DNA of 63,998 bases, the filler included, from Streblomastix strix (taxonomy: Eukaryota): NCBI GenBank assembly GCA_008636045.1. It is 4 parts of 4 records of this genome, joined end to end, with 100 filler letters (N's around TTAATTAATTAA, not from the genome) between each part and the next. Parts side by side here need not be neighbours in the genome. Positions count along the whole stretch, not along the records: positions 32,437 to 48,545 come from SNRW01000873.1; 3 more parts are not named here. One strand, 5' to 3'. The notes beneath the pieces were generated by a model. That model ran no database searches. It was not told where the DNA came from and worked only from the letters and a program-made list of their open reading frames with translations. A program made the position numbers and the translations under genes. Below are positions 32,437 to 59,609 of this stretch, in pieces. How positions within the stretch are numbered: position 1 is the first letter of the stretch; each line of letters begins with the position of its first letter.

Positions 32437-33025
32437 ACCTATAATTAGTAATATTGAAATTAAATTTAGTAAATATAATATAATAGTTGTTTATATACCA
32501 AGAAGACGAATAGGCTGTAGAGAAAACAGAAATTTTTATTTGAAATAAAAATGATTTATATTAAGGAATATTAAATTAAAATATTAATATAATGTCATAC
32601 AACAAGCATGTTTGACCGTAGAAAATTTTCATAGTCCATTGCGACTGGCAGAAAATTGATAATGAATTTTAATAATATAGGGGAGACGGGCGCTGCGCTC
32701 GTTTAAAAATCGCATTTATTTTTATTTTTTATCGGTTATATTGACATTTGTTTTTAATAAGTAGATATTAATAAATAGCGCCGTATTTTCTATATTTGGA
32801 TCCAGCAAGAATTTTTGAAAATTATTTTCTTTCTGAAATTTTAAATAAAACGATTTCATTTATGAATTATTTTAAAATTAATTAATTAATTATTGATTTC
32901 ATATATTAAAATTTAATTATAAAAAATTATTATTTTTAATTTCTATTCTTAAATTTTAAATTTTAGTTTTTCACAAATTCACTCTTTGCAAAAACATCGT
33001 TTCAAAATTTTAATAACATTTTCCA

Positions 33026-36000
33026 ATGACAAGTGCATATAACAAATCTCAATTAATTGAAGTTGGTCTACTTTTTGGAGAGGATTTACGTTATTCTACC
33101 AACAAAGTTAGGAGATGGGATTTAAATGCTTTATTGGATGAATATTAAATAGACAAACCGCATGGTTATTCAACAGATTTGAAAAACCGAGTAAAAGCGG
33201 CTGTAAAAAAGCGTAAGAAAGCGAAACAACAACGGGATTAACCTCTTGCAACGCGAAGCATTGCTAATGAATCCCTTCGGGATTCGTTTGAAAAATAAAG
33301 GTTGGAGAATGAGCAAAAGTAGGCCGCGCAACGTCGTCGGCACGAGGAGGAAGCGCGCGACAATTTTGAAAATTTACGGTATTTTGTTCAGCGTAATGAT
33401 TTTGATAATTTACAGTAACAAAGGGAATTACAGGAATATAAAAATGAATACTAGCGAAGAATATTTACAGAGGAGGCTCGAGAGAATTTATAAAATTTGC
33501 GTTAGTTTGTTCAACGAAATGATTTTGAAAATTTACAGCTACAAAGGGAATTACAGGAATATAGAGAGGAATAATAAAGAAAGGAACGAGAAGCAGATTA
33601 TAGAAATAATTTTGAAAATTTGCATTAATTTCTTTAACATGATGATTACCATAATCAATAATCTTAAAGAGAATTGTAAGAATATAACGAAGAATAATTA
33701 AGAAATGAAAGATACTAACGAATACACGATGAATTTAACAATTTATCCGATCTGGAATTACGAACATTCAAACTACTTGATGAAGAGATTGCTGAAGAAA
33801 TTCGAAAATTAGATTATAAAAATTTCAGAGAAATTGATTTTGAGGATGCTGATGCATTGATGTTAACAGAACCTTTTAACTAGGTACTGTTTAGAAGATA
33901 AATTAATAAATTTCGATAAAAATATCCGAAAGAAACTATAGAAAAAATATACTCAAAGAAGTAATCTGATAATTTTGAACCAACACGCCATTATTATAAT
34001 AATCATTTTACAAGTCAGGAGGATGTCGAAAATCATGTTAGAAGAGTTGGTTAATTAGAATTATAAATGAATAGTTTTAAAATATCTTTTGATTTTGGTT
34101 ATATTGTTGAGACAGTAAGATATGATGAAGATGGTATTCAAGAAGTAACTTACGATATAAGATATCCACATAACAATATCTTAAACGCATTAAATCCTGA
34201 ATCATTAATAGATTCTTAAGATGAATTAGAGAAATTTATTTAATATCTTCCAGCTAAGATAATTGAAAATTAAGAAAGAACTGTTGAAGATACTCATACA
34301 AGGTTTGTTGTGATTGTCTCAATGGTTGTTGTAGTATATCGTGAAAGACCTGGAGGTGCAGCACCAGCAGAATTATAAAAATATATTTAAAGATAGGAAA
34401 TGAAGTTCGTTGATAACTTGAATTATAGAAATAATTGTTTATTTGAAGCATTATCATTTATATCATTACCGGATGAATCAACAAAACGAAAATCAAACTA
34501 TAGCTGAGTTGCTGAAGGAAAACGTTTAATGAAATAATTTTATTCAGCAATTGGCAATGTATAAGTTAAGAATTTTACGGAGTTTTGTGAAAATTATCAA
34601 AGATTTGATCTTGCTTCTGAAGGTAAGTAACTTGCCAATGTGTTTAATATTAATATTTGTGTTTACGCATATCATCACTTAGATTTCGAGGACGAAAATT
34701 AAAATGATAAACCGGATCCAATTCCTTAAATCAATTCAAAAGGCAAACGAGTGCGTCGTAAAAAGGAAGATAGAGTTAAAGATGAAAAGTACGATAATTA
34801 TTTTCTTGATTTTGTAATTAAACCGGAGACCAGCGATTTGGATATTGAATTGGAAAAAGAAATTAAAGAACCAAAAGACTTTAACATCTTACTTGTTCAT
34901 TTCAGAAATAAGTTTCACATATTATATATTTCTGATACACTAGCCTTAACGGGTTTAGCATATTGCCCGATTTGTAAGTTACATGCATTGAAAGTAAACG
35001 ATATAAATGATAATTGGTAACGTGATTTAAAAAAGCATATAGAATTATGCAAATAAAACAATGGTAAGTAAGTTAAACTTTCAGGAAATTAAATACCTTT
35101 TGCGCCGTATATTATTGGAAATAAAACTTACGAATATTTCTGGTCACGTTAAGAATTATAAAAATTTAAAACAATAAAGTATTATACAACTTATGATTTT
35201 GAAACTATGGAATAATAAATTAATAAATATTTTGGGAAATCAACCAAGGAAGACGAAACGGTTCGTAATTCATTTCAGAATTCTGCTTTGGTGCCATTAT
35301 CAGTTGCATCAACAATTAAATCAAAGAATGGATTAAAATCAATTTATTTCGATGTTAGATCTAATAATTATTTAAGCGTCGCAGGTGAAAAAATATTGAC
35401 GTAAAATTTTATCCAATAATGGCTTGAAGCAATATTTGAAGAAGCTCTTTAAGTTAAATCTGATAATATGTATGATGATCCAGATGTTCCATATGATATT
35501 GCAGTTCCTACTTTAGGATTTAACTCCATACATTTCGATATGATTTTCATATTACCATATTTGACAAGCTCTAAGTGGCATATTACCAATTATCTTGGTA
35601 ACTTCTCTCATATTAAACAAGTAGGAGTTCATCACTTGATTACCGGCGTGAGAATTTAATTCTTAGACGCTGAGATGTTCGTTACAAAAATGAGACTTAA
35701 AGATGTTATCAAAGATTTTGGTAAGAAATCCAACAAAAGAAGTGATAATAAAGGAATATTCCCTTATACTGCTTTCAACACAACAAACTATGAAGAAGTT
35801 TTAAATATATCTTAACCATTTGAATAAAACTAGTTCTTTAACGAGTTAACTCAATAAAATTTATCAAATTCTGATTACTATGATTATTTGCTAGATTAAA
35901 TGATAATAATTGTTAACAAAAATGGTAAAGTAATAGATTCCATTAAGAAATTTAATAACAGATGGGATTACTTGTAATATTATAATGAACTTGACACATT

Positions 36001-38233
36001 CATCATGATAGAACCAATAGATAATCTAATTAAAATGAATTTTAATAATGATCTTGAAATGTTTAATTATTTATCTATGGCAAGCTGTGCAAATGGAACT
36101 AAGTATAAGATGTGTTGCGATGATTTAGACTTGAACTCACGATATGTTAACAAAGATGATCCAGCATTATTGTAATTTACTCCATTTGAGTTGACATAAG
36201 AACATTGGAGTAAAAAAGTTGCAAGCTATAATATGTAAGATACAAAAGCAGGACGTGATATAAAGGAAAATGTTAAAGAAGATGATTTTGAATACTTTCG
36301 AGATATAGTTTATAAAGGGTAATGCTGGTTCTGTGAAGTAAGATTCACAAATAAGAATCCACCTACATTGGATAGAATCGATAATAGTCTTGGGCATAGT
36401 AAAAGTAATGTTTAATTAGCTTGTTCATGGTGTAATGTTAAAAGAGGAAATAGAGATCCTTTCATAACTAAAGGCTTAATATAATTGAAAAGATATTACT
36501 TATCAAAAGGTTTACCAATGCCATTAACAGATGAAGAAACATATCATAAATTAAGGCCAAATATTACAGGTGGATTAGCAAATGCTTTTAATAGATATAA
36601 TGTTAAAGATGAAACTCATATTAATAAATTAAAATTTGAAGGTTAATATGTTGTAAGTTATGATCTTGATTATATAATGACTCATGTTTGTGGATATGAT
36701 TTTAATTCATTATATCCATCTGTTATGAGTGGAATTCCTCATGATTTTATTAAATACACTGGTAAAAGAATTTATATGCCAGGTTATGAATTAGATAGAA
36801 TTGAGTGTGATAGTGATTCTTAAAAAGAATTAGGTTAGATAATTATTAATAACCCATTAAGATTCTCAAATAAAAAATCTGAAATTAATAAGGTTTCTGT
36901 ATTCATTGCTGAAGTCAAAGGCCATATTGATTATAAATATATTAATGATTATATTAATTGTCCACCAATAATAAGAAAATATAAATATAAGACATTAGAA
37001 TCTGTTATTGGAGATTTTATGCATTAACATATGAAAAATAATAACTTGAAAACTGATGGTGAAGAAAATAAACTTACTGTTCTATTATCAACAATGAATA
37101 AGTATATGTGCTTCTATTCATATTATCTCTGGTTACTTATCGATGATTGCCATTTCATAATTGATGATGTTAAATGTGTTATGACATTCTCCAAGCATAT
37201 TGGATTTGAATCATTCGTTAGGAAATTCATGTAATAACGAATTTAATCAAAGATAGAAAGAAATTTTGGAGGTGAATAATTTAGTAAGATTACTATGAAT
37301 TCATCATATGGTTCTGATGGTATGAATCAAGAACATTTCTCAGATATTAAGCTATGTGATATACATGAAATATTTAGGAAACATCTCAATGGCAAATTCA
37401 AAAGTGATCGTAAATTAGGAGATAACTTATATGCTGTTGAGTTTGAATAATAAAAATTTAATTGTAAAACTTACTTATAAGTTGCATTTGCTGTATTAGA
37501 TTGTGCTAAATATTGGTTTATGACCTTCTACTATAATTTCTTAACTCCTATGGTTGATATGAATCGAGTGCATCTTATATATTGTGATACAGATTCTATG
37601 ATGTTAGCAGTTGCTGGTGATCCTAAATAAAATTATTAATAAGGATTCTCTGCTGTGATTAAGGATAAATAATTCTATGATTAAAATTTCTATAAGATTT
37701 TCCCAAAACCTAAGTCAGTAGTTACTCAAGAAAATAAGCCTTAACTAGATAAAATTGATGAAGGTAAAACAAAACTCAAAATAAAGGAATTGTAAATATA
37801 AGATGAAAAGAAACCATTGGGAGTTGCATATGAACATTGTGGTTCAACTCTTATAGCTTTAGCACAAAAGACTTATTGGTTACGATAAGAATTTGATAAG
37901 AAAGATCCAATAGTTGTTAAACTTAAAGGAATAAGTTTAAAAATGAATCCACAAATTAATAAAGAAGCTTATGGAAACAATATAAAAAATGGAATTGTTG
38001 TAAAAGGTAAGAATACTTCGTTACGATAACATTAAGAAAGAAATTCTGATGATGAAGTATTCAGTAAGATGAGTAGAATTAATACTACTATGAATGGAAT
38101 TACAGGAATTCATACAAAAATGATTGTATTAGAAAATTAATGTTGTTGCCCATATGTTGATGGAATATCTGCTGATAAATATAAAATTTAATATAAAATG
38201 TTAATGCCACCTTAAAAGCAACGAAGTTGCTGA
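33026..38233 (+). CDS. polB: Protein-primed family B DNA polymerase, ~1735 aa, with OTU-like protease, Zn finger and HNH insertion; in-frame TGA at 34505-34507
   Basis: Exo I YDFET, Exo II GFNSIHFD, KGIFPY, Exo III YNELDT, ITGGL, YDFNSLYP (36695), KITMNSSYG (37286), YCDTDS (37580), all in one frame. Confidence 0.95.
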
Positions 38234-38298
38234 ACACTTTGTGTGAATCAATGATTGAGGTATAATGTAACATAATTTATTTTTGTTTATTAAAGTTT

Positions 38299-39648
38299 AT
38301 GGCTTAACACAATTTACGCACTCGTAAGAGTAAATCATAAGCATAAATTCTTGATGAATTACTCAAAAGATTTGATAAAAACAAGAAGTAAACCGATATT
38401 GCAGAAGATTCTATGAAAATATCAATATAAACCATATTGAAATAACCTAAGAGATTAAATCTTACAGAATTTGTTGATGAAATTCAAATTCAAGATTCTG
38501 ACAATGAAATTCCGATAATTATTGAAAATGCTGATAAGATTCAATATGGTGGCAAAACTGTTTAGGATTGGTTTGATGATTATATTACAAAGGAATTGTA
38601 AAAAGGGAAGAGGAGATAAAATATTAGATTACCGCGAGCTTCGCTCGAGTCTGCTTTGCAGCCGTAAGGAAAAGCTGAGCAAACTTATTAAATCAAATTT
38701 CCATTCAAATCCAAAATAAAAGCATATGAATAAGTACATGGTGTTAAACTAGAGGATGATAAAAAATAATAAGTAGTTCCTGACTGTTAAATTAAATAAC
38801 TTCCTGAAAAATTTGGCAGACCATATTTCTCTTATGAATTTGGTTCTTGGGAGATAGATATAGTATTTTCAATGAATCCTGAGTTGGTACAGATAAATTA
38901 AATTTATTTATTCTGTATCAACATCAATACTAAATATCTTGTTGTATATCCTTTACATAGTAAATCTTAAGAAGATATTGAAAAAGCATTGTAAAATTTG
39001 GTTTAAACGTAGAACGTAACACATATCAGAGGTGATGGTGAAAAAGATTCGCAGGTAATTAACTTATGTAATTTTACAACAAGAATAGCATTAAAACTTA
39101 TTTTGTGAAAGGTTCAATTGAATTAACTAATCATAATCGTGTTGTAGATTCGGTAATAAGAACTATCAGAAATGCTTTTGGATATGATGACAGATCATTT
39201 TCAAATCCTAAGTTAATGTAATAAATGGTTGATATTTACAATGATACTCCGCACGGTGCATTTGAAAATAAATTTACACCGAAATAAGTAAATAGTTTAT
39301 AAGAACTTGAAGGATATTTCATAAGAAAGAATGATAAGAAGCTTCGTGAAGCGAAATAAGAGTAAAAAGATTAAGGATTTACTAAATATAAACCAGGAAA
39401 TGTTTTAATGATTCATGTTGATTATTTTACGTACAATGCATCGATATATGAAATAAAGAAGAAATTTCAATGAATTAGCCAAATTTATTAAATATGATAA
39501 TAGAAATGTTCAATGTTTATTATTAAAACCATTCACGGATTTGAATAGAATAACAGTTCCAATATATTATACAAAACTTATCTGTGAAAATGAATAATAA
39601 CTAAATTAGCCGTAATTTTAAAAATTTAAAGATTAATTTTTAAATTGA
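38299..39648 (+). pseudogene. Retroviral-like (rve) integrase, two frameshifts
   Basis: WEIDIVF, YLFCININTKYLVVYPL, IRGDGEK, frameshift ~39046, NHNRVVDSVIRTIR, YNDTPH..FTP; second shift ~39430-39455. Confidence 0.88.
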
Positions 39649-39740
39649 TTTAATTATATTAAACTTGTTCATCTGTGAAAAATTTATTTTCGAAAAATTC
39701 CAAATACGCAACTTCGTTGCTTAATCTTTAAGAGTATAAA

Positions 39741-40178
39741 ATGGAAAAGGAATTGGTTTAATAAATTGTACTTGAAACGTTAGCTGCTGTTAAAAAACTT
39801 CCTAAAATATAAATAAAACCTAAAATTTCGAGCGAAGCTTAGCCTCCTATAACACCCAGCGTTCAGGCGAAGCATTCAGGTTGCGAAAGCAATCTTGCAA
39901 AACAACGCGGAAGATAATATAAATATCAAACAAAGGAAGAAGCTTAATAAGTTGCTAAACAATAAAGAAAATAATGTGCAATTAAATATACTAAATAAAA
40001 ATAATATTTTAAATAGAATTAGTCAGAATCTTAATAACTTCTCATAAAAAGATTGTAAAATATGATTATAACAGATTCTGCAGAAATCAATAGAATGCAT
40101 GAAATAATAAATAAATTTGATTCAATTTTAAACAAAAATGATGATGAGGAATTAAAAAGCGAAACTGAAAATCTATGA
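39741..40178 (+). CDS. Hypothetical basic protein, 145 aa, possibly DNA-binding
   Basis: ATG-TGA in frame; RGRQYKYQTKEEA motif followed by a basic helix. Confidence 0.65.
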
Positions 40179-40224
40179 TTTAAAGCATTGATTTCGCACG
40201 GTGTTCAGCAACGAAGTTGCTTAT

Positions 40225-41192
40225 CATTTTTTAATGTGTTTCTTTTTCTTAAAATTACTTTATTCCTTTGCAGATTATAGTAATTAACTTGTTGGAATAT
40301 AATTCTTTTTTGTTTTAGGTTTCTTTTCCCCAGGTATTATTTTTGTATTTTCTTTATTGACAATTGCTGATATTGAACCATCTGCATTCATCTAATAACC
40401 AGTCTTTTGAGTTTTGAATTACTATCTGTTAAATAAATCATTAACTGGCATTCTACCCCAATCCAATGCTCCAATATCATAGATTTGTGCAAGATTTTCC
40501 TATAAAGCAAGATCTTTTTCAATTGCTTATTATTGTTTTTCTATGAGTTTCTCCTGCATTAACGGCATTGTTGGAGGTTAATCTTCAAATGATAAACTTT
40601 ATCCAAGATCTTATTAAGTTTGAATATCGTAAATATCGTCAATTTTATTGTTTTCTTTTTCTTTTTACTTCTACGACCCTGAATACATAATCTCATTATT
40701 AATTTGTTCTGGGCTTAAACCTGGTGAAGAACGTCCTAAATACATAGATGTTTAATCTAATCTAGCATTAGGATTTTAATCATATCGTTATGAATTCTCA
40801 ATAAACTTTTCAATTTTAAGTTTCCTTTCGTTATTTAACATTATTGTATTCTCAAAGAATTCTGCTCTTAATTCTTCACCAAATAATTGACCATAAACTC
40901 TTCTATTCATTGTTTTATTAGTTAAACCTAGTACACCTACTAATGCTTCATGTTTAGAAATTTCTGGATCAGCTGCATTAATTTAATCAGCAATTTATTA
41001 TTTTTATCTTGTGGACATACCTTTTTTAAGTTTGATACCTTTAGTTTTCAACATTTATGGTACTCTTTCTACATTAGAAGGATTAACTTCTTAACTGTCT
41101 ATAGTCATAGGATCTTTTATAGCCATTTCTTCTTCCCATGTTACAGGTTATACATAAGTGGGTATTAATCGTTTTTTACCTTTCTTTGACAT
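40225..41192 (-). pseudogene. Hypothetical viral protein, frameshifted
   Basis: Starts MSKKGKKRLIPT; long coding-like frames with apparent shifts. Confidence 0.55.
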
Positions 41193-41236
41193 TTTGTTTT
41201 AAACTAAATACAAATACAAATAAAGCAAATATAACA

Positions 41237-41323
41237 ATGAGCTGGGATTTATTAGTAGGAATTTCATCGTGTATATTACTCGTAGTACAGATCATTAATC
41301 TGTGCAAGCAACGAAGTTGCTGA
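41237..41323 (+). CDS. Putative 28-aa hydrophobic peptide
   Basis: MSWDLLVGISSCILLVVQIINLCKQRSC*; ends within the recurrent hairpin. Confidence 0.35.
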   Translation: MSWDLLVGISSCILLVVQIINLCKQRSC

Positions 41324-41390
41324 AGGCTTCACCTGAAGCAAAAATGATCAAAAAATGCGCAAAAAATTATTTTTCAAATATTTAAACCAA

Positions 41391-41615
41391 ATGCTTATTA
41401 CCGTTGAGGAATTTCTTGTTTACAATAATTTTTTAAGTTCATTGTTATGTGTTGCAACAAAAACAGATCCTGAAATTGAATTAAGATTTATCTTACGGCA
41501 ATATAATAAACGACTTAAAATGGAATAACTTAAGGAAATCATTAAGATTGCATAAGAAACAAGTGGATAAGAAGCTTCATTAAAACTAGTTTAACTCCTT
41601 GATTCTAAAAAATGA
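41391..41615 (+). CDS. Hypothetical protein, 74 aa
   Basis: MLITVEEFLVYNNF...LLDSKK*, in frame. Confidence 0.6.
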
Positions 41616-41721
41616 AAGCCAACGTAAAGAAGTTCAGTTTACGCCTGAACGGCCACATTCGTGGCGCCGAGCTTCGCAGGCTCTTAATCCCTTCGGGATA
41701 ATTTTTGATTGTTGTTTAAAG

Positions 41722-43203
41722 ATGACGTAACTTGGTTTATAAATTATTTGTTCTGACTCAGATACTGAATTCGTATAATGGAAAACTTCTATTCCAAGTG
41801 ACTCAAACTCGTTTCAAGTGAATTCTCTTAATAATATGCCGATTAATCTTACTTATTACCTGAATCAAGATTATCTTGAGATACATCATAACATGAAATC
41901 AACAGCAAATAAGAAATTATATGAATAAGTATCGAATCCAAATGGAACTTACAAATTAATTGAATTAACAGAAATTCCAGTAATAAAAATAAATTTTAAC
42001 ACTACAATCAATAATAGATTCACTAACGAATAGAATTATCAAGGATATTAATATGCTCCATTAATAATGGCTATTACAACCGCGTAATAAGATGAATTCG
42101 TTGATACATAAGAATAATACTTCAGAACTTCAAATACAAGTAATCGTGGTGCAATCTGTTTTAATAATGCTGTTAATGAACACACTTAGAAATTAGCTGA
42201 TGGAAAATTCTCATTGAATATTAATAATGGATAAGATATTGTATCATCCGCAATTAACTATATTAATCTGAGATTAGATTCATTTCTATATAAGTATTTT
42301 ATTTAATCCAATGGTTGTTTCTATAGATTAATTGGTATAATTCGTTTGTATTGCCCAACAGTCAATAATTTTATAACAACTATTGAACCATTCTTGACAA
42401 CAACATCAGTACATTCTGTAAAAATAAGATATTTGCATGGGAAGTAATACAATATCAATGACGATTAAACAATATAAGAAGTAATAGCTTTACCAATGAA
42501 TATTTAGGAAACTTCTATGTAATCAATCATAAACAGTATCAATACATTCCTAATAAGAATAATTTCATCATTCCTTGGTTAGAATTCTAATGACTGGGAT
42601 ATAATTTACACTGCTATTAACAGACTTTAATACTATAGTTAGTATATTCCTGATGTTTTAACTTAATTTTCATCTTTGAATTATACCAGTAACGCATAAT
42701 TGTTATGGTAACCTAAAAGAATAGTAGTATCTCCTAATTTATTCGTGTAATTAACAGGTGCATTAGATTTATATGACGGATTATCTGAGAATGGTGCAAA
42801 TTCTCTTGTTAATAATTCATCATCAGTGAAATTCATTGATTTGGAAACTTGGTACTATAAATCTTAATTTAATAATTAGAGTTTACTTTCTGATACTCCA
42901 ATTTAATGTCCCTTCATAGGAAATTTCCAGTAATATCCTCAGATGCTTATAATAAAAGTTTCAAATTAATCGTAAGGAATTACACTGTAAGGAATTGGTG
43001 GTTAAGGATTCTCTAATGTGTGTTATAAGTAAAATCTTATTGGTGCACCTGTATTAAGGGGTTAGAATATGTTATCTTAGTAATGCAATATAGGATAAAA
43101 TAAATCAGTTATATTTACATTGTATGATAATTATGGAAGAAAAATACCAAATTAATTTATGGATATGTATAATAATTTTTTGTTGGAAATACAGACTGCG
43201 TGA
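41722..43203 (+). CDS. Putative minor capsid (penton-like) protein, 493 aa
   Basis: Intact beta-rich ORF ending VIFTLYDNYGRKIPNQ...FLLEIQTA*, resembling the C-terminal motif of polinton/virophage pentons. Confidence 0.6.
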
Positions 43204-43239
43204 AACTCGTCGGCAACGAAGCGACACCAAACGTAATGA

Positions 43240-43974
43240 TAATCAAATTAGATCACAATCTTTGAATTGTATTTCTTATACTTATTCCTATTACTCAAAA
43301 TCGCTTGCGATTTAGCGACGAGCTGGCGCAGTCGCTTATTCCTATTCCTAAACTGGAATAGGTAGCGGTTGTTCTTCTTAATATTTCTTTGACTTATAAG
43401 ATTTGATTTTTGCTTTATATTTTTCGATTTACTTTACTGAATCTTGATGTTATTACTTAATGAAAGAGTTTTCAGTACGCAATCGTATTAATTCTTCTAA
43501 ATCCACTTATGGTGAGGTATAATTTAGTTACGGTTTCTTAATAATTTTCTTAGGTGTTTGTTTTTGTGTTTGCCTTGGTTAGGAGCCGGCAGGCAATATT
43601 GCTTCGCAACCTGAAGGCTCACGCCTGAATTTCATTGCTTATTCAACGATAGTTTAATCATCATCCTCGTCATAGTCATTCGTTAGTTACTCTTCTTATA
43701 TGAATTTACGATCATTTAATGATGTTTCATCTTCTTCATCTTCAATTCTCTCAATCTAACGTTTTGTTGCATGTTTTGATTGTTTTGTTTAACCTCCACC
43801 TCGTGCTTCTAATAACAATTTAGTTTACTAAGCTTATGTTAAAGTTCTCGCTGATTTCTTTCCTTCTTCATATACTTTGATCTTATCTTTAACTTACATA
43901 ATATATCCGTTACTGAAATATTCTATTGAAGTACCATTTTCCATAAGATTCTTGAGTGCTTATGCTTGATTCAT
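43240..43974 (-). CDS. Hypothetical charged protein; 3' end uncertain
   Basis: MNQAQALKNLMENGTSIEYFSNGY... with acidic and basic tracts. Confidence 0.55.
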
Positions 43975-44047
43975 CTTGATGTCTGATTTGATTTATATTT
44001 AAACTCGCAACTTTAAGTTGCAAGCAAACCAAAAGGTTTGCAAAATT

Positions 44048-44851
44048 ATGACAACAATCTAAACGAATCAGATTAGAGTTCATAAAAGCAAGCATGCGAG
44101 TGTTGTTAAGAAAGAACTTTCAGAAGAGGATAAGACGAGATTATAGGCTATTGATGACGCGACTACAAATGGTTTTAGGAAGGCGGTGTAAATTCCGTAG
44201 CTTTAAATTCCACAGAACTAGCTCTAACCTATATTTTCACATAAACTGAGCAACGTGGAGCATTGTTAACGAATTCCTTCGGAATTCGTTTCCGGTTCAT
44301 CAATCCAGACTCCTCAATAAAATAATGAATTCAATACAGATGAATAGGAGGAATTCTAAAGAGGAATATAAACCGATCGTCCACGACGTAGGGAGTATAA
44401 CATTCACAAATATAAAGAAGTTCCGCGTGAAACTGCATAAGTTGAACCAGAATAAGTTGTTAAGGATACATACTTATCTCATCCTAACTTAGAAGTATAG
44501 AAATTCATCATTGATACGATTTGGAGATGTGTTGATTCCCGTAAGAAAGGGGAAGATTTCATATTTAACTCTGATAACTATATTAAACTCTGGGTATTAA
44601 TAACCTAAGAAGAAGAGAAAGATATTGAGGTTGATATGGAAGAACCACTGATGAGATATAATAGTTGTACTTCAAAAAAATATAAGAAGAAAGAGATTGT
44701 AAGAGTTGATGATGTACTAATCAAGAATGTCTCAATTTCTAACATTGACAACGTTTTATGGAATAGTATTGAGAAACTGTATCGAGTAAATAAGGATTTC
44801 GTTAGATTATCTGATAAACTAGAATCCGACATTGGACCAGAAGATTTTTGA
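44048..44851 (+). CDS. Hypothetical protein, 267 aa
   Basis: ATG 44048 is in frame with track ORF 44636-44851, which ends in TGA. Confidence 0.65.
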
Positions 44852-44928
44852 TCAATATACCGCTATGAAATCAGTTTACTGAGTTTCACTCGGCAAGCAA
44901 CTTTGTTGTTTATTTTTGTTGAAAACCA

Positions 44929-45700
44929 ATGGAGTAAGCACAATAAATAACAAGTGATTTGGAAGATCCAACAGAAGAAGAACTAAAATAAATGATATAA
45001 GAATATGAGAAGATGAAGAAATAATAATAAGAAATAGAATCACTATAGAAGTTGTAAAAATAAATTACTTAATAAATAGAAAATGAAATAATAAAATATT
45101 TTACTTATTTTAGTTAATTTTTTAAGAAAACATCATTATCTGATTTAGTAAAATTAAAGACAGCATAAGTTATTACAGGAATCAATTCATTTACATAGCC
45201 TATCACAGCAAATTGAATCATTAAATTAGGTGGAACAAGTAATTAAATATTATTAGCTAATGGAGATACTATTAATAAGGATTAATTAGATTATGAACCC
45301 ATTGAAAATGCACGTTATTCATCAATTGCTTATGGAATGTATGAGTAACGAATATGAGGTACATTATCAACATAAAATAGTAGAGTATATATTTCTCTGT
45401 AAATAACTCACCATAATCCCGATACATTATGGTAATCAGGATATACTTTTTTCTCAATCGATGATAATGCTATAAAACCAAAATTCGGTGGAACACCAAC
45501 TAACATACCATTAAATGCTGTATTGTTTGCGTAAAAGGTATATGGTTATCCAATAGATTGGAATGGTGCAATTGTTATGGATTGCTATATTAATCTTAAT
45601 GAAAATGTTATAATAAATACAATGTGTTAGATTAATTTACCTGAAGATTTTTGTGTTTAAGTATGCGATTCATATGCTATTCATAACTAATCGGCAGATT
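44929..45700 (+). pseudogene. Fibre-like protein, disrupted
   Basis: N-terminal coiled coil, then AQVITGINSFTQPITAN*IIKLGGTSNQILLANGDT, similar to the motif in the 47317 gene; stops and frameshifts. Confidence 0.55.
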
Positions 45701-46140
45701 GATAAATAAAAATAAATTGATTAAATTGCGTTTCAATTACAATTATCATATGTTTTAAGATTCAATAACTTTAAATACAGAATGTATCTCTACATCTTTG
45801 CAAGTTCTTCGTCTTATTTTTCTATTGCTTCTTTGATGAAATCTTCTATTTATTCATTTGAATACTTGGACCAATGGAAACATCTAGCTTATTTATTTGG
45901 TTTATCCTAGTTTTCCATCTTATTTTTGTTTCTCCTCCGATAAAAGAATTAAAATATATATATAATTATATTCAATGGTACTAGAATCACATCAAAATAA
46001 CTGCATAACTACTTGATTGATGAGATTATTTATGTAAGTTATTCAGGAATTGATAATGAAATTATAGAAACTATGAAATTAACACCATAAAATATAGAAT
46101 TGATAATTATTATTAAAATATTCATTTGCATATTTGGTAA

Positions 46141-47211
46141 ATGACGTTATCCGAGATATAATCTGTAACATTTACTGATAATTCTATGTTAGATGAATAT
46201 AAAACTAAACCATCAACAAGGAATTCGTTATTATTAATCAATGGGAATCATTATATAGTTGGTGCAGTTGGTTCAGGAAAACCAACATTATTAAGCAAAC
46301 TGATAGTTATTTATAAATAAAGAATCAATCCACTCATTTTATACTTCTCCAACTTTGGTGCTGATGAGACTATGGCATTGAATTTAAACTCGAAGAATAT
46401 TGTATTATCTAATATAACTTATGAAGAAGCAATGTTTTTCTTACCAAATTTTGATGAAATCAAGTATATGGTAAAAGAAATCTATATGTACTGGAAGTTA
46501 AGAGAAGTCAACATACCTTATAAATCAGATTTCATATAACGAATGAAGGAAAGAATATTAGTAACTAATCCAATAAAAGAGATTTCTGCATCACTTCGTT
46601 CTTCGTAAGTGCCTTCGGCATAACTGAAAGAATCTTAAAAAGACTATATAAAACGAATTGCTGATTTATTTTAATATGAATGTATCGACATAATTATCAA
46701 ATACAGTGTTCCAACAAAAATAATGAGATTTACAATTCAAGCAATGATTCATAATGTATAACTCGAAAAGAAACTAAAAATCGTACCATAAAATACTTAA
46801 GCCGACGCTGAATTAAAAGTAATCAAAATTCCAATTCTATTTCATAGTTCATTATTAAATTCATTATTAATATTTGAAGACATCGGAAGTAATGCTGATA
46901 TTTAAAGATTCTCCTCAGGATTAGCTAAGACAATAACTCATTTAGTTTCTGACAGTCGACATAGCAAAAATACTGTTTTCTTTGTTGCATAACGTCCAAG
47001 TTACTTGTTCAAAACTGCAAGAATATTATCACATGTTATGTGTTTAGGAGTTAATCTATCAGAAAGTGATTTGAAACAAACGTATGAAGAAAGTTCTATT
47101 TAGAATCTTGATTTTGATGAGTTTATGTTATTGTATGGAACTCTTAATAAATATGAATTTATAATACTTAAGAAATGGTAGTGTAAATATGAAATACTAA
47201 AGAATCAGTGA
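46141..47211 (+). CDS. A32/FtsK-like genome-packaging ATPase, 356 aa
   Basis: Walker A GAVGSGKPT (46261), Walker B LLIFED (~46864), DSRHSKNTVFFVAQ and KTAR motifs. Confidence 0.85.
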
Positions 47212-47316
47212 TGTATAAATTTCGTGAGTACTTCCGTAGGAAGCGCTGACGAAGTCAGTACTCACAAAGTAAGCAAGCAACGAAGTTGATTAAATTTATT
47301 TCTGTATAACTTCCAA

Positions 47317-48545
47317 ATGACTTTGGCTAAAACCTTGAGTTAACAACAGATATAAGTAAATACGATCTTTAATATAATCAGATTTCCAATATTTGATATA
47401 ATATTCAAGGAAATCATCAAGTACATGTAGTTAATTATCGGGAAGTGAATATTAATTAACAATTGATGACTAAAACAGTTTAATATATGTACCAATAGAT
47501 AATGCTTAAAATTACGCAATGAAACTTGAAACTAATGGAGTAATGACATTGAAAAATATAAATTTATTAAATAATGATTTCTTAGCCAAAATTGCAACAT
47601 TGGAATAAGAAGTTAGTGTATTATAATAAACATTGGGAACTGCAACTTAAGATATTGGAGGATTATAATAATAAATTGATGTAATTAATGAAGAACTTAA
47701 TCGATAAACAGATTTTAGAGGATACTATTTATTAAACACAGATATATAATAATTAGAAAACTCTGCCAATGGCGATTTTGCATTCTCTGCTGAAAGTGGA
47801 ACAGTATGGATGTATGATGCGGCTTAGTATAACAGTGGAGATATAGTTCCTGATTAAGTAACTCCTGCAAGTGATGCTAATCCATTAGTTGATAGTGGAA
47901 CTGGAGTTGCAGGAACTTCAACTGAGTATTCACGAGGAGATCATTAATATCCACTATAAGTATCTACTGTATTACCAGCAAAAGATACATCAGTTGGTAC
48001 TGTTGGATAAGCAAGTACTTATGCTAGATCTGATCATTAACATCCAATTCAGACTGTAAGTACTATTCCTAATAGTGATTCTGCAGATGGATCTTATGGT
48101 ACAGTTGAATCAAACGCTAGAAATGATCATTCACATCCAATTAATGTCTAAACAAATGCTTCAATTGTACCTATAGTTAATGGAGTTGGTAACAATGGTA
48201 CTTCAGCATATTATTCAAGACATGATCATGTTCATCCATAGCAATTAACTTATGATGGAAACGTTACTGCAACTAAATTCATTAAAGCAGGAGGATCTGC
48301 TAATGAAATATTATTAGCAGATGGGACAACTAAAAATGTAGTTTTAGCTAAAAATAATTATTATGTATCAACTACAGAAAAATATATTAAATTATGTTAA
48401 TTTGTCCTTTATAATTAATCAAATAATGTTTCGGTTGAATTTTACATTAATTGTAGGTATGCTTTTGGATTATTACAATTCAATTAAAATTATATCACTG
48501 ATGGTATTGGTCAATATGATTATCATTTCGAATCTAATCAATTTT
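47317..48545 (+). CDS. Phage-tail-fibre-like protein with four (Y/N)(S/A)RxDHx(H/Y)P repeats; truncated by contig end, probable frameshift near 5' end
   Basis: Coiled coil, then YSRGDHQYP, YARSDHQHP, NARNDHSHP, YSRHDHVHP and KFIKAGGSANEILLADG. Confidence 0.75.
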
Positions 48546-49976: not shown

Positions 49977-52900
49977 TCACTTCTTTTTATCCGCCGTCTG
50001 TTTCTTTTCGTCCTTTTATTTCGGTTTAGCAGGACAGTTCTTCGCCACATGACCAACTCCGCCGCATACGAAGCAGATCCTCTGATCCTTGTATGTGCAT
50101 TCTCTGGATGTGTGTCCAGGCCTCCCACAGCGAAAACACGCATCGCGCGCTACACTGGTTGAACTATTCATGATCCCGTTTGTATCGAGTAGTAGTTGTG
50201 AGTTCCCTTCTTAATTCTGTATTGGCGATATCTATTGATCAGATGGAATATCATTAATATTACCTGAAACATTTAACTGACTATCTCCGCTAATCTGTTT
50301 ATCATCTCCTTAATTCTGAAGACCAGATCTTTTCTATGCGCCCCTCCAGCCTTGCCCACCAACAGCTATTCTTTATTTCTCAATCATTTTTTCAGCCTAA
50401 ATTCGCTCTTCAGGTGTAGTCGCTTTGGTTAATGCATGATACGGGCAGTTCGCGAATATATGCCCCATCTGTCCACAGTGATAACACCTTTCTGTGCTGA
50501 CGGCATTTGTAGCTTTGATCCGGACGCCTTATGATGTTTATGTTGGCTTTAATTTATCGAGTTATTTCTCGCTCCTTTGCTATGGATGGGTTTGTGATAG
50601 TTGGATGCTATTGTTGTTTATATTTGGTTACTGTGGGGTGTTGAATTAGCTGGAATGCAGTTATTAACGAGGTTATGTCTGTAGAAGTGGAGATTTGTTT
50701 TATTATTATTGATGAGAATGTGTTGGCACTTATCTGATTTAATGCTGTTGGAGTTATTATTATTGCTTTTACAGTGGATGCAGTAATTACTATGATTATG
50801 CAAGGTTGTTTCTCTGAAGGGATTTATTTTCTTTTATTGGCGATTTTTTGTTTTAAATATTTTGTTAGTTGAGTGAGTTTCTAATCTGCAATTATCGATC
50901 AATAATATTTGTAACACGAGGAGAATTGGCATGAGTTTAATTAAAACGTAAGGAATTTGTTTATGTTGAATTAAAATGTGGAGAATTGGTTTGAATTTGA
51001 TTAAAACGCTGAGAAATAGAATGAATTTGGTTGAAACTGGGAGAATTTACTTGAATTTGATTAACTTAACCAATATTTGTAAAGATCGGATTGCTTGGCG
51101 GCATAACTAAAGGATATTGTTGCTAATTTTACGACTGAATGTTGATTTGTTATTAATTAAATGGCTGAAGCTGAAACAGCTATTAGTTTTATGGAAACGC
51201 ACTATTTTGAATGGGAACTAATACATAATATTATTGTTGTTATTAGTCATTTGGTTAATTATTAAACATTACTTGTTGCTAATTTTATTGTTATTCTTAT
51301 TATTATTGTTTAAGCTATTATTATTACTACTACAACTACTAATTCTTTTAAAACTGAAATGACGATGAATTAAAATCTGGATAAGATTAAGAGTTAGAAT
51401 TCATCTGTAATTATCTCGAATAAGAACTATTTAAATTAGGTTAATTTGGTTAATTTGGATAATTACGAGGATTTGTCAGTTAATCAAATTAATTTAATGG
51501 TGTCAGCTGTTATTATTATGTGTATGGAAGTTCAGATACAGACAAGTTTGAATTAGATAATGACAATGAAGACAAGAATGAATTAGAATCAACTGTTTAT
51601 GAAGATGAGGTCGGTTATTGTTATAATTGTTGCTATTGCGAAAAGGATAATAATCTTGGAAGTTATTGGGCAGGTTATTCGGAGTTATTCTGTTCTGGTA
51701 AATTTGATATAGAAACTGAATTGTTGTTTTATATTTCTTTTTATTCAGGTTATGATATATCACTATTAACCTTTATGTTATTTGATTACAAATTAATTTC
51801 TTTATTTTAATTGTCTGGTTTTTGTTTTTAATCTTTTTCTTTCTCTTTATTCTTTTCTTGTTCAATATCTGATAACTTATCATTAATTAATTTATTATCT
51901 TGAATTTAAGCATCTGTTATTTTTATTGGATCTTTTGATTATTCTTCATTCTTTTCTGATTCTTATTATTTTTCTTTATCTTGTGAAACATTTGGAGAAT
52001 GATTGATATCAGAAACTGATTTATTAACTTTTGAATGATTTTATTGTCCTTCCATGTTACTTTATGATCTTTAAATTGTTTGTTAATCCTTTTATTACTA
52101 AGATGGCTATGGTTGCATTGATTATGTAGTGTCTTAATGTTTTAAGGATGGATTTGAACCTGATGATGAAGAAGAAGAAAATTCATCTTCTGTTGAAGAT
52201 GATGATGATGATGATGACAAAGCTGACTGAATAGATATTGAAGAAGGTGTTTTAGATGAAAGTTTTGATGAAGGAGTTTTAGAAGACGAGAAAGAAGATT
52301 ATCTGTCAGATATGGATTAACTTTAATTTGAAGGTGGTGGTTTATTAGTTAAATCTTTTAAATGTTCTTAATTATTTTCATTTTCTTATTGTTTTTCTTT
52401 ATTTTAAAAATCATTAGTAGAATGATTGATGTCAGAAACTGATTTATTAGGTTTTGGAGGTTTTTATTTTTCTTCCTGATTGCTTAACGATCTTTAAATT
52501 GTTTGTTAATTTCCTTGTTATTAATCAGTTTATAGCTGCATTGATTATGAAGAAGTATCTTAATGTTTTAAAGAAGAACTTGAGTTATGAGAAGAAAAAG
52601 AAGACGAAAACGATTCCTATTTTAATGATGATTATGACAAAGCAGATTAAATTGACATTTACGAAGTAGTTTTCGTAGAAGCTTTGGAAGATGACCTTGT
52701 TGAATATCCAGACGATAACATAACAGAAGATTATTACGACTAACTCTGATTGGAAGAAGATTTCTGACTCACACTCAGATCTGAATTTGAAACCTGTGAT
52801 TTTTGATTAGATGAAACAGACGCTGATTTTACAGAGCTTTATTTCGGAGAATGAATATTTGATTTGGGCGAATGAATATTTGATTTGGGCGAATGAACTT

Positions 52901-55796
52901 ACATAGGAAGCGGATGTTTGATACTGGATTGGTGCATTTGGAGTAATGAGTTTCGTGGTGATGATTATAAGTAATCGTTCGTTGGTTACAGCTGCTGTTT
53001 ATTATTGGTAGAAATGATCTGCTTTGTTTCTGGTTTATCAGAATTGGTATTGTTTTATTCTTATTATTATTATTTATCTGCTTCTTATTATTATTTACCT
53101 GGTTCTTATTAATCTATCTCTTAATTCTAGTCGGATTAATGCTGAATCATATCATGGATGGATTTGTTTGTATTCATGAGCTTTTATACATCTATTTTTC
53201 TAGCTAATGATCTTGGGAAGGTCGACATATATTGCATCTATGATTCAAGTGATTGTTTAGAATCAATATTTGTTTGTGGCTATAGCTATTGTGACTAATC
53301 ATCTGATGATTCTATTTGATCTGGACTTTTGTAAGGATCTAAGATTTATGATGGATGTTGAGGAAGTGAAAGCAAAGCGGATGCTGATAAAGGTTTTGGC
53401 AAATTCAGAATGTTTTACAGCTAAATTAATTTATTTTATTCATTTTCAAAGTTATTTATATTTTCTTTCGTTTCTTTTTCTTTTTCAACATCTTTTGATT
53501 CATCATCAGATAGATGCTGTATAATGTCATGAATTGACTTGTTGGAGTTATTAAGTTGATTATTCTCAATTTTTTTAGTTTATGGAACAATATCACTTTT
53601 ATGCGGTTATTGTTGATATTGTTTCATAGCAAATTTCCGTGATGATTTTGGAGGTAATGTTCTTGTATTGAAATTTTCAGTTTATTCTTATTTTTAGTCA
53701 CTAATTTGTTGTTCAATGTGTTTTTCCTATCCTTTTTCTTGTTCTTCAAACATTTCGTCTCTCGTTGATGACTGTTTCTGAGGAAATATTTACGAAAATG
53801 CTGATATGGGAGTACGTCGTTACTCACTTTATTTTTATTATGAATTATTATTATCCAAATTCAAAGGATCCGATCCCTAAATCTCATTCTCTTTTATTCC
53901 ATCTTTCTTATTATCTATTTCATTCATCATCTGCTTCATCATTTCAATGGATGTGTTGTACAGTTATTTCACTTGTTCTCTTATCTTCAGCGGTTTCAGT
54001 CTTTCCCTTCCTCCAGATTATGGTTTGGGAAGTGGGAGCGGATTTGGGAAAGAAATATTCTGTGTCTGTGATTGAGTTTGTGTTTATGGTTATTAATCAT
54101 CAATTTGCTTTTATTGAAGTTGGAATATTATCAGGTTCAAAAGACGGATGTTTTTGGCGTACGAGTTCATCAGCGGGTTTCTAAGGCCCAAATTCCTCAA
54201 TTTTGCTGAATTTGGGATCTCTGCGATCTTCTGTGCCACTTCAATGGCCTAATTTACATCAGTTTGTGTTAAGCTGTTCACTGAAGAATCGGTTTATGAA
54301 ACTGTGTCGTCTGAATCTGAATGAACAGATTTGGGTTTTTTTGATTGTTCGGTGCTTGATGAGGACAGATGCGATGAAAAAGAAGATTGTTACTACGATT
54401 TGTCTGAAGAAGATTATGATTTATCTGATGATTTGATTGACAGAGAATTCTGCGATTGTCTTTATGAATTATCTGGAGATGATAGTTGTAATGTTTCTTA
54501 TGAATCAGATTATGATATTATTTGTTATATTTGTATTGGAGGAGGTGGAATTGGAGGGAAATTGTATCGTGGTTTGGGAAATGGTGGATAAATGATCTGA
54601 ATCTTCTGAACTGTGACGGTTTTGTATTCTGGATCTGAAGTTTGTTGCTGCTATTCTGAAAGTTAAGTATTAAGTTGATTATTAAATTAGTTTTATTGTT
54701 ATAAATCCTGATTAGAATCAGAAGACGATGAAGATGAATATGACAACTGCGAGTTAAGCTACGATTTATTCTAATCTCCCCCACTGTTCAAAGTACTTAT
54801 AGAAATTGAAGAGTCATTTGACTTAATAGATTATAGAGACCCCGTCTATTTAGATTGTTGTGAATCATATGTTGAAAAAGAAGGCGTGTCTGAACAACCT
54901 GATATTTTGGTAGCGACTGAAGATACAGTGACGTCTGATGTATGTGTGCTGAGAGATGCTTTTGTTCTGTTTGATGAACTTTCACCTGATGACTGTTCAG
55001 ATTTGGGAGTCGTGTTCGTTTTGTCTGATTTGGATGAGTGAAGAGATTTGAAGGATTTTGTGGTTTGATCTGAATTTTCTGGCGGATCTTGTTATTCTGA
55101 CTTTTCAGATAACTGCGAGTTTTCAGTTGTGGTCGATTTCAAGGATTGATCGAGTTTTTCCAACTAAACAGAGTAGATCGATTTTTGCGAATTTTCTGAG
55201 TAATTTTGTGAGTTTTCTGAGTAAATGTGCGAATTGATTGAATTTGAATCAGATGTTGCACTGGTGCTATTCTGAGGTGATTGCTAATTTAATGAGACTA
55301 AATTAGGAGAGAAAGTTTGATTGATCTTTTAAATATCTTATTTCCGTGTTTGTTTGTTGATTAGTTAATTCAAATCAAGATTACTCAAATTGTTATTCTG
55401 ATTTACTTATCCTTATTCGATATCATTTTTCTAATTCTTATTGTTATTAATATTCATTTCAGAATAATTATCTTATTCATGTTCACTTTCTTTCAAATTA
55501 TGATATTTTTGAATTTTATTAGCTTAATCTTTGTTTAATTAATCAAAATTATCCATATTTTGATCTTTTGGTTTTTATTCATTCAATATGTTACTTGGAT
55601 GAATTTATTGAACAATTGGCAGATTTGTTTGAATTTGATCTTATTAATTTTCTATTAATTTCTTATTATTCAAGTTGTTCGTTTTTAAAGGAAATTATGA
55701 GTTATCCAATGTTCCATTAGAGTTTTAATTTTTTTAAGGATTATCTTATTGTTAATCGGTATGATTCCCATTTGTCAAATCCTTGTTCGGTTCCAT
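49977..55796 (-). CDS. Large low-complexity S/Q/N-rich protein (~1939 aa) with three C-terminal CCHC zinc knuckles
   Basis: CYHCGQMGHIFANC, CFRCGRPGHTSREC, CFVCGGVGHVAKNC; ATG 55796 and TGA 49979-49977 are in the same frame; full continuity only spot-checked. Confidence 0.7.

Positions 55797-59475: not shown

Positions 59476-59609
<134 letters not shown>

What the first reader, a model, noticed from the sequence alone, without database searches (positions are those of the whole stretch)
38217..47290. Recurrent AGCAAC-GAA-GTTGCT hairpin at viral gene boundaries
Seen: the 15-nt hairpin sits at 38217-38231 (overlapping the polB stop), 40207-40221 (between convergent ends) and 41307-41321 (overlapping a stop). 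It also occurs inverted at 39708-39720 (after integrase), with one mismatch at 47276-47290 (after ATPase), and as weaker variants near 43212, 44007 and 44896. I did not notice it in the other three contigs. Known: mimiviruses and the virophage Sputnik end transcripts at hairpins, and C-GAA-G triloops are unusually stable in ssDNA. Inference: an element-specific termination/polyadenylation signal or an ssDNA replication/packaging mark, possibly implying non-host transcription machinery.
Basis: partly seen in the sequence, partly recalled or inferred. Interest (0 to 1): 0.8.

Follow-up and report, generated by a model that had tools for sequence, protein, structure and literature searches.

The report
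Jumping DNA mini-hairpins inside endogenous virus
The repeated hairpin belongs to a set of short hairpin cassettes in a virus-like element of a termite-gut protist; sister copies lack them at the same places and carry like ones inside other genes, so they are likely tiny selfish inserts that spread while the virus copies its DNA, rather than stop signals for transcription.

Summary
The hairpin is real and far above chance, but it is one module of a larger set. Contig 32437-48545 is a Polinton/Maverick-type element read in code 6, whose closest relatives are Streblomastix strix proteins. It holds 12 perfect C-GAA-G triloop hairpins with different stems (0.2 expected; 0 in the other 47.6 kb), on both strands, in about 16 GC-rich cassettes of 15-75 nt. 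Nine lie in spacers or at gene ends, seven inside reading frames. Sister copies skip many cassettes. The ATPase insert is a derived gain. Peptides that translate the same cassettes sit as in-frame inserts at other sites, frames and orientations in sister copies, including inside pPolB. Loops flip and modules shuffle. This argues against an obligatory terminator, and the Mimivirus hairpin rule is not met. Best reading: selfish mobile DNA mini-hairpin cassettes, like yeast mitochondrial GC clusters or Rickettsia palindromic elements, but in a nuclear-integrating DNA virus. How they are copied is inferred, not shown, and no RNA data were available.

The parts
32437..48545 (.). Contig holding a truncated, partly decayed Polinton/Maverick-type element (code 6, TAA/TAG = Gln)
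   Evidence: linkers; ORFs; homologs
33026..38233 (+). Protein-primed DNA polymerase B, one internal stop at 34505-34507; carries an HNH-like zinc-finger insertion at about 36290-36470
   Evidence: (PF03175 on homologs)
38251..39648 (+). Integrase-like gene in pieces (frameshifts near 39045 and 39425)
   Evidence: table 4, 54 (P0211 named integrase catalytic domain), 102
46141..47211 (+). A32-like packaging ATPase (Walker A reads GSGKP here, GSGKT in sisters)
   Evidence: (PF04665 on homologs)
33243..33292 (.). Double-hairpin cassette inside pPolB: GCGAAGC mini-hairpin on +, C-GAA-G hairpin on -; net 42-nt insert; 86% like 44250-44291
   Evidence: (D8), 19 joint 33242>33314, 34, 63
38217..38254 (+).
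   Evidence: joint 38208>38296, 62, 63
38630..38672 (-). C-GAA-G hairpin cassette inside the integrase frame (empty allele not seen)
39707..39721 (-).
   Evidence: joints 39704>39736 and 39704>39739
39826..39900 (+). Cassette(s) inside ORF 39741-40178; 39864-39897 is a net 33-nt in-frame insert; like the reverse complement of 43596-43632
   Evidence: joint 39863>39898, 63
40184..40221 (+).
   Evidence: joint 40144>40221 in X1, X2, X3
41237..41323 (+). Small hydrophobic ORF whose stop lies in the 41307 hairpin; in P0288 the same N-terminal peptide is followed by peptides of other cassette types
41301..41339 (+).
41632..41700 (.). Row of four hairpins in a head-to-tail spacer; skipped in sister forms
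   Evidence: joint 41599>41701, 26, 33 table 5c
43200..43232 (+). Degenerate hairpin cassette between convergent 3' ends; its NEATPN reading recurs as an insert in P0136
43292..43336 (-). Double-hairpin cassette (loops not GAA) inside ORF 43243-43974; recurs at three sites, three frames and both orientations in the neighbouring gene of other copies
43580..43632 (-). Cassette inside ORF 43243-43974; its readings recur in P0003 (pPolB), P0128 and P0120
44004..44039 (.). Decayed double hairpin between divergent 5' ends; net 32-nt insert
   Evidence: joint 43974>44047 and table 5c
44250..44291 (.). 42-nt double-hairpin cassette, 14-aa in-frame insert in ORF 44048-44851, found in 1 of 115 spanning sequences (the window's own)
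44884..44910 (-).
   Evidence: joint 44852>44906
46587..46625 (-). 13-aa in-frame insert with C-GAA-G hairpin in the ATPase; absent from closest sisters and outgroups
47222..47290 (+).
   Evidence: joints 47207>47318 and 47212>47317, 26

Best explanation
The hairpins are modules of short GC-rich cassettes that are present in some copies of this Polinton-type element and absent from others, and that likely spread selfishly by being copied to new places while the viral DNA is single-stranded. Shown: presence/absence between sister copies; recurrence of the same cassette in different genes, frames and orientations; a constant C-GAA-G loop with varied, fully paired stems; module shuffling and loop flips. 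Inferred: pPolB strand-displacement replication exposes long single strands. C-GNA-G mini-hairpins fold there, resist nucleases and bind single-strand-binding protein poorly, so they would act as donors in template switching or break patching, joined without a fixed target duplication. Selection on the replicating element would then keep only in-frame inserts in tolerant protein loops, and any length in spacers, which is why most spacers hold one. The HNH-like domain of pPolB may make the breaks, but that step is untested.
For: Enrichment: 12 perfect C-GAA-G hairpins against 0.2 expected (max 1 in 20 shuffles), 0 in the other three contigs; 9 of the 15 strong hairpins in the contig have this loop; control loops C-AGA-G and C-AAG-G occur once each. 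Empty alleles: joints in contigs of public termite-gut DNA runs skip 10 of the 16 cassettes among the joints shown, several in runs of two or three studies. Where the letters between were printed they hold no such hairpin, and one X1 contig has an extra hairpin insert near 46121 that the window lacks. Length filter: net inserts of 42, 33 and 33 nt in or at the end of coding frames (DNA joints) and of 14 and 13 codons (proteins), against 31, 69, 32, 35 and 67 nt in spacers (1 of 5 a multiple of 3). Gain, not loss: the window's ATPase groups with an empty sister (support 0.98, clade 0.93) and the outgroups are empty; 5 of 5 further cluster members covering the site are empty. Mobility: 11 of 31 internal inserts in 117 homologs of ORF 44048 match six-frame translations of window cassettes better than all 30 shuffled-cassette controls; the 43292 cassette is at 3 sites, in 3 frames and both orientations. 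Sister pPolB P0003 has in-frame inserts reading FSNEIACKIASQPER and ASNEV, absent from the window. Shared modules: 25 cassette pairs align at score 22 or more against 1.0 in shuffles; the 33248/44250 pair shows a compensatory stem change; 38217 is the inverted 40184 cassette with a flipped loop. Mini-hairpin stability, nuclease resistance and poor SSB binding: PMC13037366 (passages).
Against: No DNA of sister copies was held whole: mobility rests on peptides of automatic gene models and on capped tables of contig joints, and several of the 11 matches share one ancestral event (about 6 independent events by my count). 20 of the 31 inserts did not beat all controls. Whole-protein scans at score 36 were no better than controls for the pPolB and ATPase sets. 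Spacers diverge fast, so some joints may be replaced spacers rather than clean insertions. No empty allele was shown directly for 38630, 41301, 43200, 43292 or 43580. No mobilising enzyme or fixed junction signature was found. The HNH-like motif is also in distant relatives that show no hairpin enrichment. Host DNA was tested only on 47.6 kb; no whole genome is held.
Confidence: 0.62

Rival explanations
1. The hairpins are useful to the element: added single-strand signals (internal priming or pausing sites, SSB-free landmarks, exonuclease shields) that give hairpin-rich genomes a replication advantage, gained again and again by ectopic copying.
For: Constant DNA-type loop on both strands, often one GAA loop per strand in a pair; mini-hairpins occur at G4, ssiA and N4 origins or promoters (PMC13037366); one site carries different cassette types in the window and in P0288; a lone distant locus, L005, has a similar two-strand pair in a spacer.
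Against: Many copies lack cassettes at given sites; 57 distant loci show no GAA excess (18 C-GAA-G against 20 and 20 for control loops); no primase gene was seen; places in genes vary from copy to copy.
Confidence: 0.18
2. The AGCAAC-GAA-GTTGCT module is a transcription termination or polyadenylation signal, perhaps recruited late in this lineage from mobile cassettes.
For: 7 of its 8 places follow a 3' end and two supply the stop codon; 3 of its copies score as terminator-like (7 sites against 3.9 +/- 2.0, not significant); Mimivirus and Sputnik use 3' hairpins (passages).
Against: Absent at the same ends in sisters; in a compact, mostly one-strand genome nearly every spacer follows a 3' end; the loop is GAA or UUC in the RNA depending on the copy; reads in sense inside pPolB of P0003; stems far shorter than 13 bp and GC-rich.
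Confidence: 0.1
3. Neutral mutational by-product: palindromes arise and are copied by polymerase slippage and gene conversion with no self-promotion, or partly by amplification or assembly artefacts.
For: No transposition signature; loop flips are typical of palindrome-prone replication (recalled); the window's alleles are rare among copies.
Against: De novo palindromes would not share one loop or recur as 30-45-nt modules in several genes; filled and empty forms at 39707 are both covered in X2, a study other than the best holder; in-frame bias in coding regions implies passage through selection.
Confidence: 0.1

Closest known systems
Yeast mitochondrial GC clusters (GC42; Wu and Hao 2015, PMC4478555, passages seen)
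   Same: About 40-nt GC-rich palindromic inserts in AT-rich DNA; sporadic presence/absence; merger and shuffling of units; mover unknown, an endonuclease proposed.
   Different: Mitochondrial; AG target-site duplication; changes gather in the loops. Here the loop is the constant part and stems vary, no fixed duplication was seen, and the host is a nuclear-integrating DNA virus.
Fungal mitochondrial double-hairpin elements and short inverted repeats (Paquin et al. 2000, title only; PMC3787672, passages)
   Same: Small twin-hairpin units that vary between isolates and are taken to be mobile; 47222-47266 and 33248-33289 have twin-hairpin form.
   Different: Organelle DNA; consensus and size not compared here; no sequence test was possible.
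Rickettsia palindromic elements (as summarised in PMC6649704, passages)
   Same: Selfish palindromes inserted in frame in protein-coding genes without destroying them.
   Different: Bacterial; about 150 nt (size recalled); here 33-42-nt coding inserts built from mini-hairpins.
Pithovirus M1/M2 palindromic repeats (PMC10664404, abstract and passages)
   Same: Palindromic repeats that invaded one virus lineage and are absent from its sisters; mover unknown.
   Different: About 140 nt, MITE-like with terminal inverted repeats of 47-54 bp and TA duplication, intergenic; giant virus.
Mimivirus and Sputnik 3'-hairpin polyadenylation rule (PMC8557863 and PMC11172284, passages)
   Same: Hairpins downstream of stop codons.
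   Different: A/T-rich stems of 13 bp or more; here GC-rich stems of 4-10 bp with a fixed DNA-type triloop, polymorphic, also intragenic.
Metamonad Maverick-Polintons (PMC10120064; pPolB2 group in bioRxiv 10.1101/2023.08.22.554363; passages)
   Same: The carrier element: pPolB about 42% like a Trichomonas vaginalis protein, integrase, A32-like ATPase, code 6; S. strix endogenous viruses are already listed; an HNH (PacI-like) domain in pPolB2 is described for nematode and oomycete elements.
   Different: Neither text has the words hairpin or palindrom; the major capsid gene was not found in this truncated contig.

Membership tests
Mimivirus-type hairpin polyadenylation signal | Stem of 13 bp or more, loop of 5 or fewer, A/T-rich | tested here: not met
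   longest perfect stem in the contig is 10 bp and intragenic; rule
Mimivirus-type hairpin polyadenylation signal | Kept at gene 3' ends across copies | tested here: not met
   sisters skip the hairpins
Mimivirus-type hairpin polyadenylation signal | Poly(A) sites map to the hairpin | not testable with these tools
   no RNA holder listed
GC-cluster-like mobile palindromes | Short GC-rich palindromic unit in AT-rich DNA | tested here: met
   cassettes 49% GC against 28% for the contig
GC-cluster-like mobile palindromes | Presence/absence at orthologous sites and recurrence at unrelated sites | tested here: met
GC-cluster-like mobile palindromes | Merger and shuffling of units | tested here: met
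   composite inserts in P0003 and P0288
GC-cluster-like mobile palindromes | Fixed short target-site duplication (AG) | tested here: inconclusive
   one search found no common flanking repeat; few clean junction pairs were available
GC-cluster-like mobile palindromes | Mitochondrial location | tested here: not met
   code-6 viral element; so it works like a GC cluster but is not one
MITE | Terminal inverted repeats around an internal stretch, with target duplication and a partner transposase | tested here: not met
   cassettes are rows of small hairpins without shared termini; no transposase ORF seen
DNA mini-hairpin (C-GNA-G) | GNA triloop closed by a C-G pair | tested here: met
   the strict GCGAAGC core is at 33253 and 39830 among others
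DNA mini-hairpin (C-GNA-G) | Extra stability and nuclease resistance of these very sequences | not testable with these tools
   ViennaRNA gives both strands the same energy; property taken from PMC13037366
Maverick-Polinton (carrier) | pPolB, integrase, packaging ATPase | tested here: met
   (by homologs; a direct Pfam scan found none above cut-off)
Maverick-Polinton (carrier) | Major capsid protein | tested here: inconclusive
   candidate ORF 41722-43203 gave a poor model (pLDDT 48) and no fold match; contig truncated
Maverick-Polinton (carrier) | Terminal inverted repeats and target duplication | not testable with these tools
   the right end is not on the contig; no long inverted repeat
Known RNA family | Rfam match | tested here: not met
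   3 hits, all far below gathering score

The most novel reading that the evidence does not exclude
The cassettes are 30-45-nt hyperparasites of a eukaryotic DNA virus. Their replicator is the single-stranded C-GAA-G mini-hairpin itself, copied by the virus's own strand-displacing polymerase and possibly seeded at cuts by its fused HNH domain. They write new peptide loops into viral proteins, helped by a genetic code with one stop codon, and hundreds of endogenous copies in one genome record their spread insertion by insertion.
Probability: 0.3. Interest if true: 0.8.

Novelty: new variant of a known kind. Interest (0 to 1): 0.62.

Why it matters
How tiny palindromic repeats (GC clusters, double-hairpin elements, Rickettsia elements, pithovirus repeats) move has stayed open. 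Here a similar invasion sits in a 16-kb element with few enzymes and at least 212 homologous gene copies on record for one host. Filled and empty sites, junctions and order of gains can therefore be read off directly, and the candidate movers (pPolB, its HNH-like domain, the integrase) can be assayed. The constant DNA mini-hairpin loop points to a single-stranded-DNA route rather than an RNA route. It also warns that hairpins at viral gene ends need not be terminators.

Tried and rejected
Table 11 ORFs: none in the region; code 6 used instead. Whole genome: none held, so no host-wide scan. Expression: no RNA holder listed. Close DNA relatives: none in IMG/VR (one search gave 5 short HNH-like matches only) and none in GTDB with the ATPase. 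Metagenome and GTDB scans with pPolB gave only distant elements. An 18-mer scan of IMG/VR gave 3 unrelated GC-rich contigs. Hairpin excess in distant relatives was rejected: pooled over 57 loci (L001-L045, L060-L071; L046-L056 left out as short partial matches), 18 C-GAA-G in 442 kb against 20 and 20 for control loops; my first impression of L020/L023/L037 as related cassettes is not backed by that count. Cassette DNA against the other contigs and loci: only 12-14-nt chance matches. Whole-protein cassette scans: noisy. My early note that 41307 lies between 5' ends was wrong; it ends a small ORF. HNH-like domain: single-sequence model useless (pLDDT 38); best PDB sequence hit PacI is weak (E 0.36 and 0.055). 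ORF 41722-43203 as capsid: no verdict. The 11-aa ATPase insert of another sub-lineage resembles cassette readings by eye only and is not counted. Rfam and sigma-70 scans uninformative. The tree failed at display and was redone with the insertion columns left out (26 rows given, P0089 and the shorter hits not aligned). Literature: searches found no description of such cassettes in Polintons; the library lacks most subscription papers, the primary Mimivirus and translational-bypass papers were not held, and no supplements were read, where such repeats might be noted.

Full report
Setting. The window is four contigs joined by N-linkers. The third, 32437-48545, has no long table-11 ORFs in the region but reads well in code 6. 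It encodes a pPolB (33026-38233, one internal stop), an integrase in pieces, several small ORFs, an A32-like ATPase and a repeat-rich ORF cut by the contig end. The nearest proteins are Streblomastix strix hypotheticals (pPolB up to 90%; all 42 ATPase hits), then gut-metagenome proteins and a Trichomonas vaginalis polymerase at about 42%. Endogenous viruses of S. strix are already listed in PMC10120064 (passages). The carrier is thus a known kind of element. Its capsid gene was not identified here.

Observation. The constant feature, however, is the loop. The contig has 12 perfect C-GAA-G triloop hairpins with stems of 4 bp or more and eight or so different stems, against 0.2 expected and 0 in the other 47.6 kb. 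Nine of the 15 strong hairpins of any loop have it, and control loops of like make-up occur once each. They lie on both strands and group into about 16 cassettes of 15-75 nt (boundaries set by eye), 49% GC in a 28% GC contig. Many are twin hairpins, often with one GAA loop on each strand, and 47222-47266 is T-shaped. Nine cassettes lie in spacers or at gene ends, seven inside ORFs.

The cassettes are a shared vocabulary. 25 pairs align at score 22 or more against 1.0 in shuffles. A 42-nt unit is at 33248 and 44250 (86%, with a paired C-G to T-A change in a stem). 39864 matches the reverse complement of 43596. The 38217 cassette is the inverted 40184 cassette, except that the loop is flipped relative to the tail.

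They are absent from many sister copies. Four public termite-gut DNA runs (three studies; X1 may be the window's own source and is not independent) were laid as contigs. Among the capped lists of joints, contigs skip 33243, 38217, 39707, 39864, 40184, 41632, 44004, 44250, 44884 and 47222. The joints at 39707, 40184, 41632, 44884 and 47222 are also seen in X2 or X4. Where the letters between are printed they hold no such hairpin, and one X1 contig carries an extra hairpin insert near 46121. At 39707 both forms are covered in X1 and in X2. Net insert lengths are multiples of three in coding frames (42, 33, 33 nt) but mostly not in spacers (31, 69, 32, 35, 67). At protein level the window's ATPase has a 13-residue insert that its closest sisters lack. 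The tree nests it among empty sequences with empty outgroups, so it is a gain. The 14-residue insert in ORF 44048 is in 1 of 115 spanning sequences. A sister pPolB ends without the hairpin-encoded tail.

They turn up elsewhere in other copies. Of the 120 listed homologs of ORF 44048 (212 found), 118 were aligned, the window's included (two long ones left out). Of 31 internal inserts in the other 117, 11 match six-frame translations of window cassettes better than all 30 shuffled controls; 20 do not. The cassette that the window has in ORF 43243-43974 appears in this other gene at three sites, in three frames and both orientations. Shared ancestry reduces the 11 to about six events. P0288 has other cassette readings right after the small ORF that ends at 41307 here, though that gene model is probably of a decayed copy. 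These are peptide-level inferences, since the DNA of those copies was not on hand, and unrestricted whole-protein scans were noisy.

Range. In 57 distant loci (pPolB 31-48% identical) C-GAA-G hairpins are no commoner than control loops (0.41 per 10 kb against 7.4 here); only L005 has three in 3.6 kb. The invasion looks lineage-specific.

Against a terminator. The published Mimivirus rule is an A/T-rich stem of 13 bp or more (PMC8557863, passage); the longest perfect stem here is 10 bp and intragenic. The loop would read GAA or UUC in the RNA depending on the copy, one cassette lies between divergent starts, sisters lack the hairpins, and the motif reads in sense inside a sister pPolB. Transcript ends were not testable.

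Mechanism. C-GNA-G loops are the DNA mini-hairpins described as very stable, nuclease-resistant and poorly bound by SSB (PMC13037366, passages and section 4.2). pPolB elements are taken to replicate by strand displacement, which exposes single strands (established for protein-primed replicons; recalled). I infer that folded cassettes act there as donors in template switching or break patching. No common target duplication was seen, and two junction pairs read by eye (39863>39898, 43974>44047) show the insert replacing a single base. In-frame survival implies passage through selection on a replicating element, eased by code 6 having one stop codon. pPolB carries an HNH-like insertion whose best, weak PDB hit is PacI, as reported for other pPolB2 enzymes (bioRxiv 10.1101/2023.08.22.554363, passages). 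It could supply breaks, but distant relatives have the same motif without cassettes, so it is not sufficient.

Comparison and verdict. The cassettes behave like yeast GC clusters (PMC4478555, passages), fungal double-hairpin elements and short inverted repeats, Rickettsia palindromic elements and pithovirus repeats. They belong to none of these: different host replicon, smaller size, constant loop with variable stem, no fixed duplication seen. Ten literature searches found no account of such cassettes in Polintons; coverage of subscription journals and supplements is poor. Earlier scan notes gave nothing on this genome or sequence; two notes on GAA-loop mini-elements in prokaryotes are unchecked parallels only. 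Verdict: observation confirmed and extended; terminator reading unlikely (0.1); selfish mobile mini-hairpin cassettes most likely (0.62); new variant of a known kind; interest 0.62.

Noticed in passing
window 36290-36470 (+): HNH-like zinc-finger insertion in a metamonad pPolB, weakly like PacI; the passages seen give this domain as unique to nematode and oomycete pPolB2, yet the motif also fetched many gut-protist-like loci.
   Followed up: partly
window 41237-41323 (+): 28-codon hydrophobic ORF, N-terminal part conserved in P0288; possible small membrane peptide of the virus.
   Followed up: partly
window 46141-47211 (+): A second ATPase sub-lineage has a different 11-residue insert at the same loop as the window's 13-residue insert, suggesting an insertion-tolerant site.
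   Followed up: partly
window 32679-32702: GC-rich island with a GC-GCA-GC mini-hairpin on the minus strand near the left end of the element; possible terminus or origin.
   Followed up: no
window 33347-33704 (+): Three 123-nt tandem repeats (41 codons) in the pPolB N-terminal region.
   Followed up: no
window 44004-44039, 44884-44910, 38234-38246: Decayed loops read as if CpG had changed to TpG or CpA, which would fit methylation of integrated copies; by eye only.
   Followed up: no
L005 2340-2373; L020 7751-7782; L035 7589: Isolated two-strand hairpin pairs or GAA hairpins in distant elements; not above controls when pooled.
   Followed up: partly
L060-L071: Polinton-type pPolB contigs filed within bacterial genome records, probably protist DNA binned in by mistake.
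   Followed up: no
window 49977-55796 (-): 1939-codon Gln/Ser-rich ORF ending in CCHC zinc knuckles in contig 4 (gag-like?); a long (TA)n tract lies near 59477-59600.
   Followed up: no
window 41722-43203 (+): 493-residue beta-rich ORF with 51 homolog clusters and no fold match; candidate structural protein.
   Followed up: partly
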